The notes under the pieces are model-generated. The model saw only the letters and a list, made by a program, of their open reading frames with translations. It was not told where the DNA came from and searched no databases. A DNA stretch of 7,926 nt from a virus (lineage: Duplodnaviria; Heunggongvirae; Uroviricota; Caudoviricetes), in IMG/VR virus record IMGVR_UViG_2648501390_000011, positions 1 to 7,926 of that record. One strand, written 5' to 3'. Shown one piece after another: positions 1-7,926 of the stretch; position 1 is the first letter of the stretch; each line of letters opens with the position of its first letter. The translations under genes and the position numbers were made by a program.

Positions 1-967
1 CAGGGGAAAAATGTGCATAAATCATAGTCATTTTAATATCTGAATGCCCAAGAATATCTTTCAAAACGAGTATGTTTCCACCGTTCATCATAAAATGACT
101 GGCGAATGTATGGCGCAGAACATGGGTACACTGACCTTCAGGCAGTTCAATACCAGCCCGTTTGACCGCTCGTTCAAAAGCCTTTCTGCATGGCGTGAAT
201 AACTTCCCTCTGTTTTTGGGGAGTTCGTCATAGAGAGCCTGAGATATCGGTACTGTCCTATTTTTCTTTCCTTTCGTCTTTGTATAGGTAATACGGTATT
301 TTGATAATTGGTGGCCCTGTAAGTTTTCCGCTTCACTCCAGCGCGCGCCGGTAGCCAAGCATACCTTTGCGATCATCAACAGACTTGGATTTTGAGAGTT
401 TGCGCAGGCGTCAAGTAGGCGTTTAATTTCCTCCTGAGATAGGAATGCCAATTCACCTTCAGCAATTTTAAATGTTGGAAGCCCTGCCAATGGGTTTGGT
501 GCTGACCAGTGTCCTAGTTTTTTCAATGTGCCGAATACAGATGACAGGTTACGCTGCTCAAGATTAACCGTGCGAGGTTTTACGGGGGACATGAAAACAC
601 CGTCTTCATTTTTGACCTCCCCCTTTAATCTGGCTTCCCGATATTTTGTGAAATCACCTGCTGTCAGTTCCGAGGCAATAGGATTGCCGAGACCGGTACA
701 AATAATTTTTAATTTTGCCATCAAACGCTTTGGGTCAGCGAGTGTCTGACCATACAGGGAATACCACTGCTCAATCACTTCTGACAGTTGTCGCCGATCT
801 TCTTTTTCTCCTAGCCAAGGTTTCTTGTTTACCTCGTCCATGGTGAAATTCTCAAACGCAATGGCTTCGCCTTTCGTCGCAAATTGTTTGCGTACGCGTT
901 TGCCATCTCGCCCGTTTGGGTAGCATTCACATAACCACTTTCCGTTCGGCTGTTTTCTGATGGTCAT
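1..967 (-). CDS. int: Tyrosine recombinase (phage integrase, P2/186 type); N-terminus at 967, C-terminal end lies beyond the left edge of the window
   Basis: Own translation of the minus strand from ATG (967-965) gives an uninterrupted frame down to position 2: MTIRKQPNGKWLCECYPNGRDGKRVRKQFATKGEAIAFE...HVLRHTFASHFMMNGGNILVLKDILGHSDIKMTMIYAHFSP. It contains the HxLRHT box and the catalytic-Tyr region (MIYAHF) typical of tyrosine recombinases. Absent from the ORF track only because there is no in-window stop; the listed 88..336 minus ORF is an out-of-frame shadow. Confidence 0.9.
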   Translation of the reverse strand, partial: MTIRKQPNGKWLCECYPNGRDGKRVRKQFATKGEAIAFENFTMDEVNKKPWLGEKEDRRQLSEVIEQWYSLYGQTLADPKRLMAKLKIICTGLGNPIASELTAGDFTKYREARLKGEVKNEDGVFMSPVKPRTVNLEQRNLSSVFGTLKKLGHWSAPNPLAGLPTFKIAEGELAFLSQEEIKRLLDACANSQNPSLLMIAKVCLATGARWSEAENLQGHQLSKYRITYTKTKGKKNRTVPISQALYDELPKNRGKLFTPCRKAFERAVKRAGIELPEGQCTHVLRHTFASHFMMNGGNILVLKDILGHSDIKMTMIYAHFSP

Positions 968-968
968 A

Positions 969-1601
969 TCAAAGGCTCTTAATGATTTTCAGTGCGCGGC
1001 CTATTACCTCAATGTCATCCAGTTCGCACTCAAACGATGAATCATCCTGATGCACTACTAATCTGTTTCCCGGGAGTCGTGTCAATTTTACAATGCTTTT
1101 TATCCCGTCGATGTCCACTAACCACGTACCATTTACTGGTGGTGTTTGGTTGCGATCTATTAAATAAGAATCACCAGAAGTAGTCACCAGCAGCAGGTTG
1201 CTTGAGTCTGAGGGGAGTATGCTGCTATCAATGATTGCTTTTCCAGCATCGATCAGCAAACCTCCGTTGAGAGTTGCCTTGTCAATTTCAGGAGATACAA
1301 GCTCCGAAAGAGGTTTAACTTTGCTAGAGTTCACGGAATTGATATTTCTTTTAGGGTCAATGTTTGAACCTGGATCGCCCTGTCCGGTAGTTAGCCACAG
1401 TAAAGAAACTCCTGTTTCCAAAGCGCACTGAATCACCCATTCTGCAGGAAAACTATCTCTTAAGTATCTGTTTGCCATAGTGCTTTTTGATGCGCCCAAG
1501 TGATCGCAAAGTTGCTGTCTGGACTTGAAATCATAGGCTGCCATTAGCCTATGGATAGCCTCTCTTCCCCCTGTATTCTCGCCAGCTTTTACTTGTATCA
1601 T
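969..1601 (-). CDS. cI: Phage CI-type repressor (186 CI-like: N-terminal HTH, C-terminal oligomerisation domain)
   Basis: 210-aa ORF. The N-terminus (GGREAIHRLMAAYDFKSRQQLCDHLGASKSTMANRYLRDSFPAEWVIQCALETGVSLLWLTTGQG) matches my recollection of the Phage_CI_repr HTH family. RBS-like AGGA sits upstream of ATG 1601. The stop (TGA, 971-969) is 1 nt from the int ATG, and the gene faces away from a divergent early operon. Confidence 0.8.
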   Translation of the reverse strand: MIQVKAGENTGGREAIHRLMAAYDFKSRQQLCDHLGASKSTMANRYLRDSFPAEWVIQCALETGVSLLWLTTGQGDPGSNIDPKRNINSVNSSKVKPLSELVSPEIDKATLNGGLLIDAGKAIIDSSILPSDSSNLLLVTTSGDSYLIDRNQTPPVNGTWLVDIDGIKSIVKLTRLPGNRLVVHQDDSSFECELDDIEVIGRALKIIKSL

Positions 1602-1613
1602 TTTTTAATCCTG

Positions 1614-1642
1614 TTGACGTATCAAATATTGGATCGTAGTAT
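1614..1642 (+). promoter_or_regulatory. Candidate sigma70 early (pR-like) promoter: TTGACG -17 bp- TAGTAT
   Basis: TTGACG at 1614-1619, a 17-nt spacer, and TAGTAT at 1637-1642 lie in the 119-bp cI/apl intergenic region, oriented toward the + strand early operon that starts at 1721. Confidence 0.45.
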
Positions 1643-1665
1643 CTTGGTGTATCAAATATTGAATC
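1619..1665. repeat. Two copies of a 17-bp operator-like element (GTATCAAATATTGGATC / GTATCAAATATTGAATC), 30 bp apart, each an imperfect dyad around AATATT
   Basis: Direct read: 1619-1635 and 1649-1665 are 16/17 identical. Copy 1 occupies the promoter spacer and copy 2 lies just downstream of the -10. A third partial copy (AATCAAATA) is at 1662-1670. Confidence 0.5.
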
Positions 1666-1720
1666 AAATAAAACAAGATAAAACGACGTAAACCAAACCT
1701 TAATCGAGAGATACTGCACT

Positions 1721-1969
1721 ATGAGCAACGACATTTCAATTCGTGTACCAAAAGTGATGGCGACACCAGCTGAGTTCGCGGAATGGGAAGGCCGCTCTCG
1801 CGGTTCGGTATATCAAATGATTCATAATGGTAAACTCGCTAAATTCTTGGAAAGAAAAGAAAAACCGAAAGACAGAGTATGTATACGTTACCTTGAGTAC
1901 AAAAAGGAACAAGTCAGGAAAAACATGGGCCAATCCAATTTCAACTTTAATGTCATCGTTGGTGACTAA
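1721..1969 (+). CDS. apl: Small HTH DNA-binding protein, Apl/Cox-like (excisionase / early-lytic repressor role in 186/P2)
   Basis: 82-aa ORF, first gene of the rightward operon and divergent from cI. Basic, with an HTH-like segment (PAEFAEWEGRSRGSVYQMIHNGKL). Assignment rests on position and size relative to 186 apl / P2 cox. Confidence 0.6.
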   Translation: MSNDISIRVPKVMATPAEFAEWEGRSRGSVYQMIHNGKLAKFLERKEKPKDRVCIRYLEYKKEQVRKNMGQSNFNFNVIVGD

Positions 1970-2001
1970 GTTCAATTATGAGAACTTTCTAAGGGGGCAG
2001 C

Positions 2002-3552: not shown

Positions 3553-4406
3553 GCACCATCCTGAAATGGGCGGGAAATAAAACCGCCATTATGTCCGAAC
3601 TGAAAAAACACCTTCCTGCTGGCCCGCGACTGGTTGAACCTTTCGCGGGTTCCTGTGCTGTGATGATGGAGACGGATTACCCCAGCTATCTGGTTGCGGA
3701 TATTAATCCTGATTTAATCAACCTCTATAAAAAGGTTGCCGCTGATTGTGAATCGTTTATATCTCGCGCCAGAGTTTTATTTGAGATCGCAAACAGGGAG
3801 GTAGCTTATTACAACATAAGGCAGGAGTTTAATTACTCAACTGAAATTACTGATTTCATGAAAGCGGTATATTTCCTGTATCTCAATCGTCACGGTTACC
3901 GTGGTTTATGTCGCTATAACAAGAGTGGGCATTTCAACATTCCCTACGGTAATTATAAAAATCCGTATTTCCCTGAAAAAGAAATTCGCGCATTTGCAGA
4001 AAAAGCCCAGCGGGCAACGTTTATCTGCACCAGCTTTGATGAAACGCTGGCGATGTTGAAGGCGGGGGATGTGGTGTATTGCGATCCGCCGTATGACGGT
4101 ACGTTTTCCGGCTATCACACTGATGGTTTCACTGAAGATGACCAGTATCACCTAGCATCCGTTCTTGAACATCGATCATCTGAAGGACATCCGGTCATTG
4201 TTTCTAACAGTGACACATCCCTGATTCGTTCGCTGTATCGCAATTTTACTCACCACTATATCAAGGTAAAACGCAGCATCGGTGTGGCAGCTGGCGAGGG
4301 TAAATCAGCAACAGAAATCATCGCTGTTTCCGGGCCGCGCTGCTGGGTGGGATTTGATCCTTCGCGTGGCGTGGATAGTTCTGCCGTGTACGGAGTGCGT
4401 GCATGA
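3549..4406 (+). CDS. dam: DNA adenine methyltransferase, Dam-like (GATC-type N6-adenine MTase)
   Basis: GGAGG at 3538-3542 followed by ATG 3549. The 285-aa product has the SAM-binding motif ([10 protein letters not shown]), the catalytic DPPY motif ([10 protein letters not shown]) and long Dam-like stretches ([46 protein letters not shown]). The track's 3489 start is an upstream in-frame extension through the TraR-like gene. Confidence 0.9.
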
Positions 4407-6817
4407 GCCATGCTGATATGAACAACTGCAGCGGCTTTAACGAGATCGCCGCAGCATTCTCATGGAACAGCCCGAAAAAGGCCATTAACCCTTATCTGGA
4501 CCCGGCGGAAGTTGCGCCGGTTTCTGCGCTTTCAAACCTGATCACTCTGTACGCTGCCGATAACGAGCAGGAACAGCTGCGCCGTGAGGCGCTGAGTGAT
4601 CAGGTCTGGGAGCGTTATTTCTTTAATGAATCCCGTGATCCTGTCCAGCGCGAAATGGAGCAGGATAAGCTCATTAGTCGGGCAAAGCTGGCGCATGAGC
4701 AGCAGCGTTTTAATCCGGATATGGTCATTCTGGCGGACGTCAACGCCCAGCCTTCCCATATCAGCAAGCCGCTGATGCAACGTATTGAATACTTCAGCAG
4801 CCTGGGCAGGCCAAAGGCTTATTCCCGCTATTTGCGTGAGACGATTAAGCCATGTCTGGAACGACTGGAGCATGTACGCGAGAGTCAGCTATCCACTTCT
4901 TTTCGCTTTATGGCAAGCCATGAAGGGCTGGACGGCCTGCTGATTCTGCCTGAAATGAGTCAGGATCATGTGAAACGCCTGTCCACCCTGGTAGCTGCGC
5001 ATATGAGCATGTGCCTTGATGCAGCTTGTGGCGATTTGTATGCCACCGATGACGTTAAGCCAGAAGAAATCCGCAAGACATGGGAAAAGGTGGCGGCGGA
5101 AACCCTGCGTCTGGATGTCATCCCACCTGCGTTTGAGCAACTCCGTCGGAAAAGAAACCGCCGTAAACCCGTGCCCTATGAGCTCATTCCGGGTTCGCTG
5201 GCGCGTATGTTGTGCGGCGACTGGTGGTATCGGAAATTATGGAAGATGCGTTGCGAATGGCGGGAAGAGCAGTTGCGCGCTGTTTGCCTGGTCAGCAAAA
5301 AAGCATCTCCTTATGTCAGCTATGAAGCCGTGATGCATAAACGTGAGCAGCGCCGTAAGTCGCTGGAGTTTTTCCGTTCTCATGAACTGGTGAACGAAGA
5401 CGGCGACACGCTGGACATGGAGGATGTGGTAAACGCCAGCAGCAGCAACCCTGCGCATCGCCGCAATGAGATGATGGCCTGTGTTAAAGGTCTGGAGCTT
5501 ATCGCGGAAATGCGCGGTGACTGCGCCGTTTTCTACACTATCACCTGTCCGTCGCGTTTCCATTCCACGCTAAATAACGGCAGACCAAACCCGACCTGGA
5601 CAAACGCGACGGTAAGACAAAGCAGCGATTATCTGGTCGGCATGTTTGCTGCATTTCGTAAGGCGATGCACAAAGCCGGGTTGCGCTGGTATGGCGTGCG
5701 GGTGGCTGAGCCGCATCATGACGGCACAGTTCACTGGCACCTGTTGTGTTTCATGCGCAAAAAAGACCGCCGTGCCATTACTGCATTACTGCGTAAGTTT
5801 GCCATCCGTGAAGACCGCGAGGAGCTGGGCAATAACACTGGGCCGCGCTTTAAGTCTGAGTTGATTAACCCGCGCAAAGGAACGCCGACAAGCTACATCG
5901 CGAAATATATCAGTAAGAACATTGACGGTCGTGGTCTGGCTGGCGAGATCAGCAAGGAAACGGGTAAATCTCTGCGTGATAACGCTGAATACGTGAATGC
6001 CTGGGCGTCTCTGCATCGTGTTCAGCAATTCCGCTTCTTTGGTATTCCGGGGCGTCAGGCTTATCGTGAACTTCGCTTGCTGGCTGGTCAGGCGGCAAGG
6101 CAACAGGGTGACAAAAAAGCAGGTGCGCCGGTACTGGATAACCCGCGTCTTGATGCCATTCTGGCTGCTGCTGATGCTGGCTGTTTTGCCACCTACATCA
6201 TGAAGCAGGGCGGCGTGCTGGTTCCCCGCAAATATCACCTTATCAGAACAGCTTATGAAATTAACGAAGAGCCGACCGCCTATGGCGATCACGGTATTCG
6301 TATTTATGGCATCTGGTCACCCATTGCAGAGGGCAAGATCTGCACTCATGCCGTGAAGTGGAAAATGGTTCGTAAGGCCGTTGACGTTCAGGAGGCGGCA
6401 GCCGACCAGGGCGCTTGCGCCCCTTGGACTCGTGGCAATAACTGTCCCCTTGCTGAAAATTTGAACCAACAAGGGAAAGACAAATCAGCTTATGGGGATA
6501 CCAGAACGGACATTACCCGCATGGATGACAAGGAGTTGCACGATTACCTGCACAGTATGAGCAAAAAAGAGCGCCGGGAACTGGCTGCAAGGTTACGCCT
6601 GGTGAAACCGAAACGGCGTAAAGACTACAAACAGCGAATTACAGACCATCAGCGACAGCAGCTCGTCTATGAGCTGAAGTCCAGAGGATTTGATGGCAGC
6701 GAGAAAGAGGTCGGTTTACTCCTTCGCGGCGGCAGTATTCCGTCAGGAGCAGGCCTGCGTATCTTCTATCGGAACCAGCGTTTGCAGGAAGATGATAAGT
6801 GGCGGGATCTGTATTAA
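4403..6817 (+). CDS. A: Phage replication initiation endonuclease gpA (HUH rolling-circle initiator, P2 A family)
   Basis: 804-aa ORF. HUH metal-binding motif ([15 protein letters not shown]) and a downstream paired-tyrosine motif (YIAKYISKN), as in P2 gpA. The start overlaps the dam stop (ATGA at 4403-4406). Confidence 0.9.
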
Positions 6818-6909
6818 TTACGCGGGTTAACAATTCGTGCTCTTAATAATACCAGGCATATCAGGCTGATGAACGTAAAAAAACGTTTTACATCAGTAAG
6901 ATTATTATA

Positions 6910-6929
6910 TACTGTAAATATAAACAGTG
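6910..6929. promoter_or_regulatory. LexA (SOS) box, TACTGTAAATATAAACAGTG
   Basis: CTGT-N8-ACAG with an AT-rich spacer; 17/20 match to the E. coli consensus TACTGTATATATATACAGTA. It lies 40 bp upstream of the RBS (AGGAGG, 6960-6965) of the ORF at 6970 and overlaps candidate -10 hexamers. Confidence 0.7.
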
Positions 6930-6969
6930 GTTATGTATACAGTATTGCTTTGGTGTCATAGGAGGAAAG

Positions 6970-7158
6970 ATGCAGGACTATTTTTTGGAGTCTTTGAAGC
7001 TCCAGCGCATTGATTTTTTTCTTAAGCTTGTAGCGGCTAGTGAGTGTAGTGATGAAGAGAAGGGGCTGGCCCTGCAGTGGGTTTCTGAACTAACAGATGA
7101 ACTCATGGCAAAAATCAGAACCCACGAATACAACCGCTCAATGGATGTCATCAGCTGA
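6970..7158 (+). CDS. Small SOS-regulated protein, candidate N-terminal part of a Tum-like antirepressor
   Basis: 62-aa ORF with a strong RBS, directly downstream of the LexA box. Its stop (TGA 7156-7158) overlaps the RBS of the DinI-like ORF. Function inferred from context only. Confidence 0.5.
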   Translation: MQDYFLESLKLQRIDFFLKLVAASECSDEEKGLALQWVSELTDELMAKIRTHEYNRSMDVIS

Positions 7159-7168
7159 GGTGACTTTT

Positions 7169-7402
7169 ATGCGCATTGAAATAATGATCGATAAAGAGCA
7201 GAAGATTAGCCAGTCTACCCTGGACGCTCTGGAGTCCGAGCTTTACCGCAACCTGCGCCCCCTGTATCCCAAAACGGTAATTCGTATCCGCAAAGGTAGC
7301 TCTAACGGTGTGGAACTTACCGGACTGCAACTGGACGAAGAAAGAAAACAAGTGATGAAAATTATGCAGAAAGTGTGGGAAGACGACAGCTGGCTGCATT
7401 AA
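7169..7402 (+). CDS. dinI: DinI-family protein (SOS-inducible; DinI/Tum C-terminal-domain-like)
   Basis: GAGG at 7157-7160 followed by ATG 7169; 77 aa (MRIEIMIDKEQKISQSTLDALESELYRNLRPLYPKTVIRIRKGSSNGVELTGLQLDEERKQVMKIMQKVWEDDSWLH). Length and pattern match E. coli DinI as I recall it (MRIEV...start, acidic W-containing C-terminus). The track's 7097 start is an upstream extension in the same frame. Confidence 0.75.
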   Translation: MRIEIMIDKEQKISQSTLDALESELYRNLRPLYPKTVIRIRKGSSNGVELTGLQLDEERKQVMKIMQKVWEDDSWLH

Positions 7403-7537
7403 GAAACGTTGCTGGCGTCTGAACTTGCTTCTGGCGTCAGCAAGGTTGAACAACGAGCCCTTGCGAGGCGTTAGCTCTGTAGTGCATGTCTATGCCGCAT
7501 GAGATCGCATGATCGTTTGAGGATCGTTTTTGCTAAG

Positions 7538-7561
7538 GCCCGCCAGAACTGGCGGGCTTTT
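7538..7561 (+). terminator. Rho-independent terminator (GCCCGCCA-GAAC-TGGCGGGC-TTTT)
   Basis: Perfect 8-bp GC-rich stem with a 4-nt loop, followed by TTTT; 135 bp downstream of the dinI-like stop and upstream of the AT-rich cargo gene. Confidence 0.6.
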
Positions 7562-7726
7562 GCGTAGATCATGCAGGTGCATGAAAACCACTGCATAAAG
7601 CGGGCAGGCGTGGCGGGGATACGAGCGCGCGCAACAGTGTAACAATCTGGATCTAATGTGATATAGTTACTGTAAATATTATTAACTATTCTTATATGCA
7701 TTATTAAATATTTTAATGGAGCGTTT

Positions 7727-7926
7727 ATGGAAAAATATCAAGATGAGGAATATGTAGATGATTTAACTGAGCGTGTTTTTCTCATTAAGCAACAACTGGA
7801 AGCGGGAAAACTAAAAATAGCTCATCATCTTGTAGAAGGTTTTATTGAAAGTTTTAAAAGAATAAGGCTGCGACAGGATGGTAAAGTTGACCCTTCTACT
7901 GTTGATGGCAGAATAAGGGCTATGGG
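7727..7926 (+). CDS. Hypothetical protein, N-terminal 66 codons only (continues past the right edge); AT-rich accessory gene
   Basis: GGAG at 7718-7721 followed by ATG 7727. Own translation MEKYQDEEYVDDLTERVFLIKQQLEAGKLKIAHHLVEGFIESFKRIRLRQDGKVDPSTVDGRIRAM has no stop before the window end. By my count the first 64 nt are about 31% G+C, against about 52% in a sampled 60 nt of gpA. Confidence 0.55.
   Translation, partial: MEKYQDEEYVDDLTERVFLIKQQLEAGKLKIAHHLVEGFIESFKRIRLRQDGKVDPSTVDGRIRAM

What the first reader, a model, noticed from the sequence alone, without database searches (positions are those of the whole stretch)
7562..7926. AT-rich gene of unknown function starting at the P2-family variable hotspot, the most likely entry point to an undescribed accessory or defence system
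After gpA and the SOS module, P2-family phages carry a hypervariable cargo locus (old and tin in P2) that in related prophages is known to hold diverse anti-phage systems. Here a terminator is followed by an AT-rich promoter-like stretch (7660-7726) and an ORF at 7727 whose composition (about 31% G+C in the first 64 nt) contrasts sharply with the about 52% of the core genes, indicating recent horizontal acquisition. The visible 66 residues (acidic N-terminus, then an amphipathic helix-like segment) match nothing I recognise. The system itself lies mostly outside this window.
Basis: partly seen in the sequence, partly recalled or inferred. Interest (0 to 1): 0.65.

Follow-up and report, generated by a model that had tools for sequence, protein, structure and literature searches.

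The report
Solo candidate defence gene beside P2 cos
The AT-rich reading frame at the window's end is the first 12% of a single 557-residue gene of unknown function that sits between the packaging (cos) site and the portal gene of a P2-like prophage, a slot where sister prophages carry known anti-phage systems; it is a plausible but untested new single-gene defence protein, distantly related to parts of two known defence systems.

Summary
An ORF starts at ATG 7727 (GGAG at 7718) after a strong terminator (7535-7561) and a 19% G+C spacer, and runs off the window.

Homology to about 1,300 sister prophages ends at about 7633, just after cos.

In E. coli records identical over window 6800-7926, the ORF is one 557-aa "hypothetical protein". 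Its stop lies 31 nt from the convergent portal gene, so the cargo is one gene, not a multi-gene system.

- **Position:** it lies on the opposite side of cos from P2 old/tin. In sister prophages this cos-portal bay holds Rst_3HP, a NotI-type restriction-modification pair, or nothing.
- **Family:** about 750 representatives across at least eight phyla. There is no conserved neighbour, dN/dS is about 0.09, and neighbours are often integrases and defence genes.
- **Homology:** there are no Pfam, NCBIfam, PHROG, PDB or viral-structure matches. The only links are PADLOC profiles, DitB (Aditi) for the core and Avs1c for the N-terminus.
- **Membership:** it is not a canonical Aditi, because it has no DitA partner.
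- **Mechanism:** unknown. A classical transmembrane effector is not supported.

Verdict: a probable new single-gene defence variant, with moderate interest and no phenotype shown.

The parts
7535..7561 (+). Rho-independent terminator that closes the LexA-controlled small-ORF/DinI-like operon. It is the counterpart of phage 186 t95b. The finding's start coordinate, 7562, is the first base after its T-run.
   Evidence: RNA fold gives -23.4 kcal/mol, z = -4.99, with 0 of 200 shuffles folding as well. It aligns to the 186 right end and is conserved in all six P2-like loci aligned.
7566..7632 (.). Conserved cos region. The 19-nt cohesive-end sequence GGCGTGGCGGGGATACGAG lies at 7607-7625 and is followed by CGCGCGC.
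   Evidence: Matches 14 of 19 bases of the annotated cos of phage 186 (NC_001317 1-19) and resembles the P2 cosL. The local alignment spans the 186 right-end/left-end junction. The core motif occurs once and is expected 0.01 times. It is invariant in E. coli, Citrobacter, Cronobacter and E. kobei loci.
7633..7638 (.). Left junction of the cargo module. Similarity to sister P2-like prophages and phages stops here.
   Evidence: Megablast and blastn matches of about 1,300 E. coli records and 85 phage records end at window 7631-7646. The multiple alignment diverges immediately after CGCGCGC(A/T).
7639..7667 (+). Candidate sigma-70 promoter of the cargo gene: -35 GTAACA at 7639-7644, a 17-nt spacer, and an extended -10 TGATATAGT at 7659-7667.
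   Evidence: Consensus scan scores 9 of 12 with a TG motif, but the site count is not above chance. The same extended -10 lies at -60/-61 in the E. coli and Citrobacter alleles, and a TGGTATTAT lies at -73 in Cronobacter. Function is inferred, not shown.
7668..7726 (+). AT-rich 5' leader with the Shine-Dalgarno GGAG at 7718-7721.
   Evidence: G+C is 19.4% over 7660-7726. GGAG lies at -9 in four of five alleles examined.
7727..7926 (+). First 66 codons of a 557-codon gene that continues 1,474 nt beyond the window. The product is a 63.6-kDa, pI 5.8 protein. It has an Avs1c-like helical N-terminus (about aa 2-74), a DitB-like alpha/beta core (about aa 195-452), and a C-terminal long helix plus a Gly/Ala-rich hairpin (about aa 454-552).
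   Evidence: Translation. Full gene in records 100% identical over window 6800-7926. PADLOC hits. AF2 model with pLDDT 80.7. dN/dS of 0.08-0.10.

Best explanation
The ORF at 7727 is the start of a self-contained, single-gene accessory module carried in the cos-to-portal bay of a P2-like (186-type) prophage. The module has its own promoter, one 557-aa protein, and a hairpin terminator shared with the convergent portal gene.

Its most likely role is anti-phage defence expressed from the lysogen.

Shown:
- The anatomy, the position, and the variability of the slot.
- Purifying selection on the gene.
- The solo and mobile nature of the family.
- Remote profile homology of the core to DitB of the two-gene Aditi system.
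- Remote profile homology of the N-terminal helices to Avs1c, the small third gene of AVAST type I.

Inferred:
- The protein is both sensor and effector in one chain.
- The conserved polar residues of the alpha/beta core form a ligand-binding or catalytic site: H156, K164, D188, T189, R348, S373, R427, R436, N464.
- The C-terminal helix and small-residue-rich hairpin (aa 488-525) mediate oligomerisation or conditional membrane attack after a phage cue, stopping the infection, possibly by killing or arresting the cell.

The membrane step is the weakest part of this account.
For: **Position**
- The gene lies between gpA/DinI/cos and portal gpQ in E. coli, Citrobacter and Cronobacter prophages.
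- In prophages with the same DinI-cos block, this bay holds Hp1-3 (Rst_3HP), an m5C methylase with a NotI-family endonuclease, or nothing.
- The neighbouring bay before cos holds SIR2+HerA or PDC-S31 together with this gene.
- The gpA-gpQ hotspot and its validated defences are described in PMC9122126. PMC13586616 reports that 19% of P2 elements have only unknown genes there. In P4 satellites, 6 of 8 randomly chosen loci of unknown genes protected against phages.

**Homology**
- DitB at E = 7e-10 for this protein, matched by 19 of 62 diverse family members over consistent regions.
- Avs1c matched by 24 of 62 members, best E = 5e-7.

**Family behaviour**
- 757 representatives at E <= 1e-3, found in 111 species of many phyla.
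- No conserved neighbour in 78 loci; the largest neighbour cluster appears in 8 loci.
- Neighbours include integrases, YoeB, DUF4238, GmrSD, ThsB/TIR, AriA, AbiLi and a type IIG restriction-modification enzyme.
- One copy sits in Tn7-like cargo beside an OLD-TOPRIM ATPase, a UvrD helicase and an HNH gene.
- dN/dS is 0.08-0.10.
- The gene is rare: 17 of 5,426 E. coli genomes.
- It stays intact in decayed prophages.
Against: - No phenotype is available, and no paper or supplement searched mentions the protein.
- The DitB and Avs1c links are remote, and both are components of unknown function, so they say nothing about mechanism.
- There is no DitA partner.
- The hydrophobic hairpin is not a classical transmembrane segment. 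Kyte-Doolittle 19-residue maximum is 1.62. The best Hessa-scale 19-mer is +4.3 kcal/mol. Only 1 of 62 members falls below 0, and many members have charged residues there.
- Guilt by association in a hotspot also fits other cargo types.
Confidence: 0.6

Rival explanations
1. A lysogenic-conversion or phage-fitness cargo gene that is not an immune system. Examples would be a superinfection-exclusion or envelope-associated factor acting only on close relatives, or a factor that aids the host or the prophage in some other way.
For: It has its own promoter and a fixed position 119-121 nt after cos in alleles that have diverged to 56% identity. Eight of 14 viral contigs carrying family members have a P2-type portal immediately downstream, including a 32%-identical member. 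This suggests a long association with this phage group. No enzymatic or known immune domain was found.
Against: Sister phages with an empty bay exist, so the gene is dispensable for the phage. None of 80 species-level genome loci has a P2 portal nearby. There the gene sits in islands and transposons among defence genes. It also shows homology to components of two validated defence systems.
Confidence: 0.2
2. A counter-defence or anti-satellite gene. On this reading the protein helps the P2-like phage overcome host immunity or parasitism by P4-like satellites that use the same cos.
For: It lies directly beside cos, the element that P4 satellites exploit (PMC9122126). Phage variable regions also carry anti-defence genes.
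Against: Anti-defence proteins are usually small and phage-restricted. This is a 557-aa protein found mainly in chromosomal islands of many phyla without phage genes. It is also retained in decayed prophages that can no longer produce virions.
Confidence: 0.08
3. A selfish toxin or addiction-type element that is maintained because losing it is costly, with no role in phage interactions.
For: It is a solo, mobile, AT-rich gene with a hydrophobic C-terminal hairpin, and some neighbours are toxin-antitoxin genes.
Against: No partner antitoxin or conserved small neighbour was found in 78 loci. A lone constitutive toxin would not be kept intact under strong purifying selection (dN/dS about 0.09).
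Confidence: 0.07
4. A decaying or non-functional ORF.
For: The window shows only 66 codons, and the two E. coli records identical to the window over 6800-7926 carry degraded prophages.
Against: The full-length frame is intact in all 19 E. coli copies but one. About 750 full-length family representatives exist. dN/dS is 0.08-0.10, and the AF2 model is confident (pLDDT 80.7).
Confidence: 0.02

Closest known systems
DitB of the Aditi defence system (Millman et al. 2022; two genes of unknown function, bioRxiv 10.1101/2022.05.11.491447)
   Same: The core, residues 195-452, matches the PADLOC DitB profile positions 95-344 of 361 at E = 7e-10. Nineteen of 62 diverse family members match the same profile region. 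Like DitB, it has no recognisable domain.
   Different: - It is a single gene with no DitA-like partner and no conserved neighbour at all.
- It is 557 aa rather than about 360, with an extra Avs1c-like N-terminal helical domain and a 100-residue C-terminal helical/hydrophobic extension.
- The similarity is remote (36 bits).
- No DitB sequence or structure could be obtained here for a reciprocal test.
Avs1c, the small third gene of AVAST type I (name as in PADLOC; Avs1a nuclease and Avs1b protease-STAND are described in PMC12799240)
   Same: The N-terminal 70-75 residues match the 86-position Avs1c profile in 24 of 62 family members, best E = 5e-7.
   Different: - For the window's own protein the match is only E = 0.029.
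- Here the segment is fused to a large protein rather than being a separate small gene.
- There is no STAND NTPase, protease or MBL nuclease nearby.
- I could find no reported function for Avs1c.
Other cargo of the P2 gpA-gpQ hotspot (Rousset et al. 2022, PMC9122126), such as Rst_3HP, restriction-modification pairs and SIR2-HerA
   Same: It occupies the same slot, with the same left junction just after cos and the same right junction at the portal terminator. It is interchangeable with these systems among near-identical prophages.
   Different: It shares no sequence similarity with any of them, and it has not been tested.
P2 old and tin; phage 186 orf97
   Same: These are accessory exclusion genes of P2-family phages near cos.
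   Different: They lie before cos, at the right end of the virion DNA, whereas this gene lies after cos. There is no homology: PADLOC gave only DitB and a weak LeoBC hit.
Membrane-acting abortive-infection effectors (transmembrane effectors of CBASS, Pycsar, retrons and the Rst systems, as summarised in PMC9122126)
   Same: There is a C-terminal hydrophobic, Gly/Ala-rich helix-turn-helix at aa 488-525. There is also a weak hit to the LeoBC dynamin-like profile over aa 430-540, E = 0.001-0.005.
   Different: Hydrophobicity is below that of translocon-inserted helices and is poorly conserved across the family. No membrane association has been shown.

Membership tests
Cargo of the P2-family gpA-gpQ (cos-proximal) variable hotspot | Located between the replication gene gpA and the portal gene gpQ of a P2-like prophage | tested here: met
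   The order is gpA (window 4403-6817), small ORF, DinI-like gene, terminator, cos, this gene, then portal on the opposite strand.
Cargo of the P2-family gpA-gpQ (cos-proximal) variable hotspot | The slot differs among otherwise syntenic prophages | tested here: met
   1,285 E. coli records share the left flank, but only 11 continue into this gene. Alternatives in the same bay are Rst_3HP, a NotI-type restriction-modification pair, or an empty bay.
Cargo of the P2-family gpA-gpQ (cos-proximal) variable hotspot | Confers protection against phage | not testable with these tools
   This needs cloning and a phage challenge. No published test was found.
Aditi (DitA + DitB) | Protein homologous to DitB | tested here: met
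   PADLOC DitB at E = 7e-10 (36 bits) for aa 195-452. Nineteen of 62 family members match the profile. The homology is remote, and no reciprocal test was possible.
Aditi (DitA + DitB) | Adjacent DitA partner gene (two-gene operon) | tested here: not met
   This is the only gene between cos and the portal. No neighbour is conserved in 78 loci. No DitA hit was found for any segment at E <= 10.
Aditi (DitA + DitB) | DitB-like size and architecture (profile of 361 positions) | tested here: not met
   The protein is 557 aa, with about 195 extra N-terminal and about 105 extra C-terminal residues that are conserved family-wide.
AVAST type I (Avs1a, Avs1b, Avs1c) | Avs1c-like sequence | tested here: inconclusive
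   Twenty-four of 62 family members match Avs1c, best E = 5e-7. The window's own N-terminus matches only at E = 0.029.
AVAST type I (Avs1a, Avs1b, Avs1c) | STAND NTPase-protease (Avs1b) and MBL nuclease (Avs1a) in the same operon | tested here: not met
   There are no such genes in the locus, and none recurs among 144 immediate neighbours.
Transmembrane abortive-infection effectors | At least one predicted transmembrane helix | tested here: inconclusive
   Kyte-Doolittle 19-residue maximum is 1.62 at aa 488. The best Hessa-scale 19-mer is +4.3 kcal/mol, and only 1 of 62 members falls below 0. No dedicated predictor was available.
   No PHROG or Pfam match. It is absent from almost all sister prophages and from 50,696 of 50,697 phage records. 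An empty-bay relative exists.

The most novel reading that the evidence does not exclude
The gene founds an undescribed, widespread family of single-polypeptide anti-phage proteins (about 750 representatives at 50% clustering, at least eight phyla). The family fuses an Avs1c-like helical module to a DitB-like core and a C-terminal hairpin. If so, it would give the first handle on what the unexplained Aditi and Avs1c modules do. It would also show that the P2 hotspot consists of two separate cargo bays on either side of cos, and that this family has long been resident in the portal-side bay.
Probability: 0.5. Interest if true: 0.62.

Novelty: new variant of a known kind. Interest (0 to 1): 0.5.

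Why it matters
If the protein protects against phages, it adds a single-gene system to the known repertoire. Its core is shared with Aditi and its N-terminus with AVAST type I, two validated systems whose corresponding parts have no known function. A one-gene version is the simplest setting in which to find the trigger and the effector activity.

The result also refines the map of a well-used discovery site. The P2 gpA-gpQ hotspot is two bays separated by cos, with precise junctions: about 7 nt after the cos 19-mer on one side and the portal terminator on the other. Those junctions could be used to harvest cargo systematically.

If the gene does not protect, it is simply one more uncharacterised accessory gene in a slot already known to be variable.

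Tried and rejected
- **Curated libraries.** Pfam, NCBIfam and PHROGs gave nothing for the protein. Pfam run on 62 diverse members gave no recurring family, only single noise-level hits including DUF6236.
- **N-terminally extended relatives.** Pfam and PADLOC on variants of 700-840 aa gave no informative fusion domain.
- **Solved structures.** The PDB searched by sequence and by profile gave nothing.
- **DitB and DitA sequences.** I could not retrieve any for a reciprocal or structural comparison. Searches for DitB, Aditi and DUF6236 in the paper library gave no mechanistic information.
- **Published tests.** I looked for the protein's accessions in the text of the library and in the supplements of the DefensePredictor and Rousset 2022 papers, and found none. 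No supplement is held for the 2026 NAR paper.
- **Membrane effector.** This was my first idea. I downgraded it after the Hessa-scale and family-wide checks.
- **Conserved partner gene.** Rejected by clustering neighbours from 78 loci.
- **Known RNA.** Rfam found none in the window.
- **Minus-strand ORFs.** The ORFs at 7471-7701 and 7490-7645 run across the terminator and cos. They have no support, and I treat them as chance ORFs.

Full report
**1. What is in the sequence**

The window is the early (left-to-right) region of a P2-family prophage of the phage 186 type. In order it carries:
- a CI repressor on the minus strand;
- Cox/Apl-like, CII, Fil, DUF5347, DUF2732, TraR/DksA and Dam genes;
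- the replication endonuclease gpA (4403-6817);
- a 62-aa ORF (6970-7158);
- a DinI-like gene (7169-7402).

This layout comes from the ORF list and the annotation of near-identical E. coli records. An exact LexA box, CTGTAAATATAAACAG, lies at 6912-6927. The small-ORF/DinI pair is therefore the counterpart of the SOS-controlled p95/tum operon of phage 186.

The finding's interval begins right after a strong terminator at 7535-7561 (deltaG -23.4 kcal/mol, z = -5.0).
- ATG at 7727 with GGAG at -9, and a frame open to the end of the window.
- 31.3% G+C in the first 64 nt and 19.4% in 7660-7726, against 53% for gpA.
- An acidic N-terminus.
- A promoter-like site with an extended -10 at 7639-7667. 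Promoter-like sites are not more frequent here than in shuffles. However, the TGATATAGT element is kept at the same distance from the ATG in the 79%-identical Citrobacter allele, although its flanks have diverged.

**2.

GGCGTGGCGGGGATACGAG at 7607-7625 matches 14 of 19 bases of the annotated cohesive end of phage 186 and resembles that of P2. The surrounding sequence aligns across the joined right and left ends of the 186 genome. The 13-nt core is expected 0.01 times by chance.

Matches to about 1,300 E. coli records and 85 phage records all stop at window 7631-7646. A six-way alignment is invariant through CGCGCGC and unrelated afterwards. The cargo module therefore starts at about 7633, a few bases after cos.

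This places the gene at the left end of the packaged genome, between cos and the portal gene. P2 old/tin and 186 orf97 lie on the other side of cos.

Two E. coli strains carry extra cargo between DinI and cos, and also carry this gene after cos:
- SIR2+HerA in one strain.
- A DUF2971/PDC-S31 gene in the other.

The published gpA-gpQ hotspot (PMC9122126) is therefore two bays separated by cos.

**3. The whole cargo**

The window itself matches no complete E. coli genome end to end; the best match is 95.9% over 96% of its length. Positions 6800-7926, however, are 100% identical to two E. coli chromosomes and 97-97.5% identical to nine other records.

In all of these the ORF is a 1,674-nt gene annotated as a hypothetical protein. 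Its stop codon is 31 nt from the stop of the convergent portal gene, with one hairpin between them that folds on both strands. The cargo is thus a single gene of 557 aa, and the window holds 12% of it.

All 19 E. coli copies are at least 99.3% identical, so extending beyond the window is safe. The structure model was built on the cluster representative, which differs at two residues.

**4. Is the slot a defence slot?**

Prophages with the same DinI-terminator-cos block carry different contents in this bay:
- Hp1/Hp2/Hp3, the Rst_3HP system of Rousset et al. (PADLOC E from 1e-64 to 1e-10).
- An m5C methyltransferase with a NotI-family endonuclease.
- Nothing at all.

The empty bay shows that the gene is dispensable for the phage. 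The gene is also not a structural or packaging gene: it has no PHROG or Pfam match and occurs in 1 of 50,697 phage records.

**5. The protein and its family**

*Annotation and structure*
- Curated libraries give nothing.
- PDB sequence and profile searches give nothing.
- The AlphaFold2 model is confident (pLDDT 80.7, pTM 0.72) and mostly helical, with a small alpha/beta core.
- The model has no structural relative in the PDB or in the viral library beyond generic helical hairpins.

*Distribution*
- A full HMMER scan of 1.84 billion representatives finds 757 relatives at E <= 1e-3 and 263 at E <= 1e-30. Nearly all are 545-560 aa and align end to end.
- A scan of species-representative genomes finds the family in 111 species. 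The phyla represented are Proteobacteria (all classes), Bacteroidota, Cyanobacteria, Actinomycetota, Planctomycetota, Acidobacteriota, Nitrospirota and Cloacimonadota.

*Neighbours*
- Clustering all neighbours within 6 kb in 78 loci shows no conserved partner. The largest cluster is in 8 loci at varying positions and orientations. This is a solo gene.
- Immediate neighbours include integrases, YoeB, DUF4238, ResIII, GmrSD, ThsB/TIR, AriA, AbiLi and a type IIG restriction-modification enzyme.
- Individual contexts include Tn7-like cargo next to an OLD-TOPRIM ATPase with UvrD and an HNH gene. Another is an integrase island beside mutS, and another a locus beside an HTH-reverse transcriptase pair.

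*Association with P2-like phages*
- Eight of 14 IMG/VR contigs with family members have a P2-type portal immediately downstream. One of these is a member only 32% identical, next to a portal 50% identical.
- None of the 80 species-level genome loci has such a portal nearby.
- The family is therefore mobile and not phage-bound, but it recurs in this one slot of P2-like phages.

**6. Age and selection**

Alleles in Citrobacter (79% amino-acid identity), Cronobacter (56%) and a prophage remnant in Enterobacter kobei (58%) all start 119-121 nt after the same cos 19-mer.
- dN/dS is 0.08-0.10, with saturated dS.
- All alleles have 35-37% G+C and about 25% at third codon positions.

Low G+C is therefore a stable trait of the family in enterobacteria, not a sign of recent arrival. 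Only the E. coli allele looks recently spread.

The gene is intact in two decayed prophages: the E. coli records identical to the window, and E. kobei. This fits selection by the host.

**7. Links to known systems**

The only homology found is to PADLOC profiles.
- The core (aa 195-452) matches DitB at E = 7e-10, and 19 of 62 diverse members match the same part of the profile. From the name I take DitB to be a component of Aditi, a validated two-gene system whose proteins had no detectable domain. Aditi was still unclassified in a 2024 survey.
- The N-terminal 70-75 residues match Avs1c in 24 of 62 members, best E = 5e-7. The window's own protein matches only at E = 0.029. Avs1a and Avs1b are a gated nuclease and a protease-STAND protein (PMC12799240). 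I found nothing on Avs1c.
- A weak LeoBC hit covers the C-terminal region.

Membership:
- Not a canonical Aditi. There is no DitA, and the architecture differs.
- Not an AVAST system. There is no STAND protein.
- Best described as a distinct single-gene family built from a DitB-like core.

**8. Mechanism**

The shown facts are the anatomy, the own promoter and terminator, selection, mobility, and the defence-slot position. The rest is inference.

I commit to a single-chain sensor-effector defence protein expressed in the lysogen. I put about 0.6 on the defence role.

For the effector step, my first idea was a membrane-inserting C-terminal hairpin (aa 488-525, Gly/Ala-rich). The checks weaken it:
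- The Kyte-Doolittle maximum is 1.62.
- The best Hessa-scale 19-mer is +4.3 kcal/mol.
- Only 1 of 62 members has a segment below 0, and many carry charges there.

The hairpin may equally be an oligomerisation element. In that case the activity would sit in the conserved polar cluster of the alpha/beta core (H156, K164, D188, T189, R348, S373, R427, R436, N464). I give the membrane variant about 0.2.

**9. Rivals**
- A non-immune accessory or exclusion factor tied to P2-like phages (0.2).
- An anti-defence or anti-satellite factor (0.08).
- A selfish toxin (0.07).
- A dead ORF (0.02, refuted by selection).

**10. Verdict**

- It is hotspot cargo, unannotated, and a good defence candidate.
- It is one gene, on the portal side of cos.
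- It is not a recent arrival.
- It has no phenotype.

It is the kind of object this hotspot is already known to hold. PMC13586616 reports that 19% of P2 elements have only unknown genes there. The distinct points of interest are the DitB/Avs1c module sharing, the breadth of the family, and the two-bay structure with exact junctions.

Noticed in passing
window 7607-7625 (conserved block 7566-7632): The phage cos site lies inside the finding's interval. The P2 gpA-gpQ hotspot is split by cos into two cargo bays, DinI-cos and cos-portal. Both can be occupied at once, for example SIR2+HerA or DUF2971/PDC-S31 before cos with this gene after it.
   Followed up: yes
window 6912-6927, with ORFs 6970-7158 and 7169-7402: An exact LexA box, CTGTAAATATAAACAG, lies upstream of a 62-aa ORF and the DinI-like gene. 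This mirrors the SOS-controlled p95/tum operon of phage 186. The function of the 62-aa ORF is unknown.
   Followed up: partly
window 7405-7447: A second strong hairpin lies directly after the DinI-like stop codon (deltaG -26.9 kcal/mol, z = -2.5). It may be the counterpart of the partial terminator t95a of phage 186.
   Followed up: partly
L005 7882-9674 (Enterobacter kobei); L001 12808-17839 (E. coli NZ_CM194531.1): Decayed P2-like prophages at the same rcdA-ybjL chromosomal site still keep cos and an intact copy of the gene. In E. kobei almost all phage genes are gone. This suggests the host retains the gene.
   Followed up: partly
L112 4001-6725 (IMG/VR contig); also L104 and L106-L111: Family members as distant as 32% identity sit immediately upstream of a P2-type portal gene that is itself only 50% identical. 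The association with this slot is either old or recurrent.
   Followed up: partly
window 1-2000: The window is a mosaic. Its integrase/CI end differs from the records that match its right end perfectly, and no complete E. coli genome matches the whole window (best 95.9% over 96% of it).
   Followed up: partly
proteins P0159, P0219, P0224, P0232, P0239 and others (700-843 aa): Some family members carry an extra N-terminal extension of 200-300 residues with no Pfam or PADLOC match. Only one of them shows a weak HTH hit.
   Followed up: partly
window 7471-7701 and 7490-7645, minus strand; L101 4200-4397; L097 4486-4743: Short ORFs and database gene calls span the terminator and cos region in several records. 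One is flagged with an internal stop. They look like annotation artefacts over a non-coding packaging site.
   Followed up: no
NZ_CP019275.1 (37,446-bp separate circular record of strain 13P477T) 8489-10163: The phage carrying this gene was assembled as a separate circular molecule as well as in the chromosome, which suggests it can excise. In that copy the gene is split into two annotated ORFs, by a frameshift or a sequencing error.
   Followed up: no
window 3701-4000 and 6801-7000: Two other dips in G+C occur, to 35.5-37%. One lies inside the Dam methylase gene and one in the gpA-to-SOS-operon spacer.
   Followed up: no
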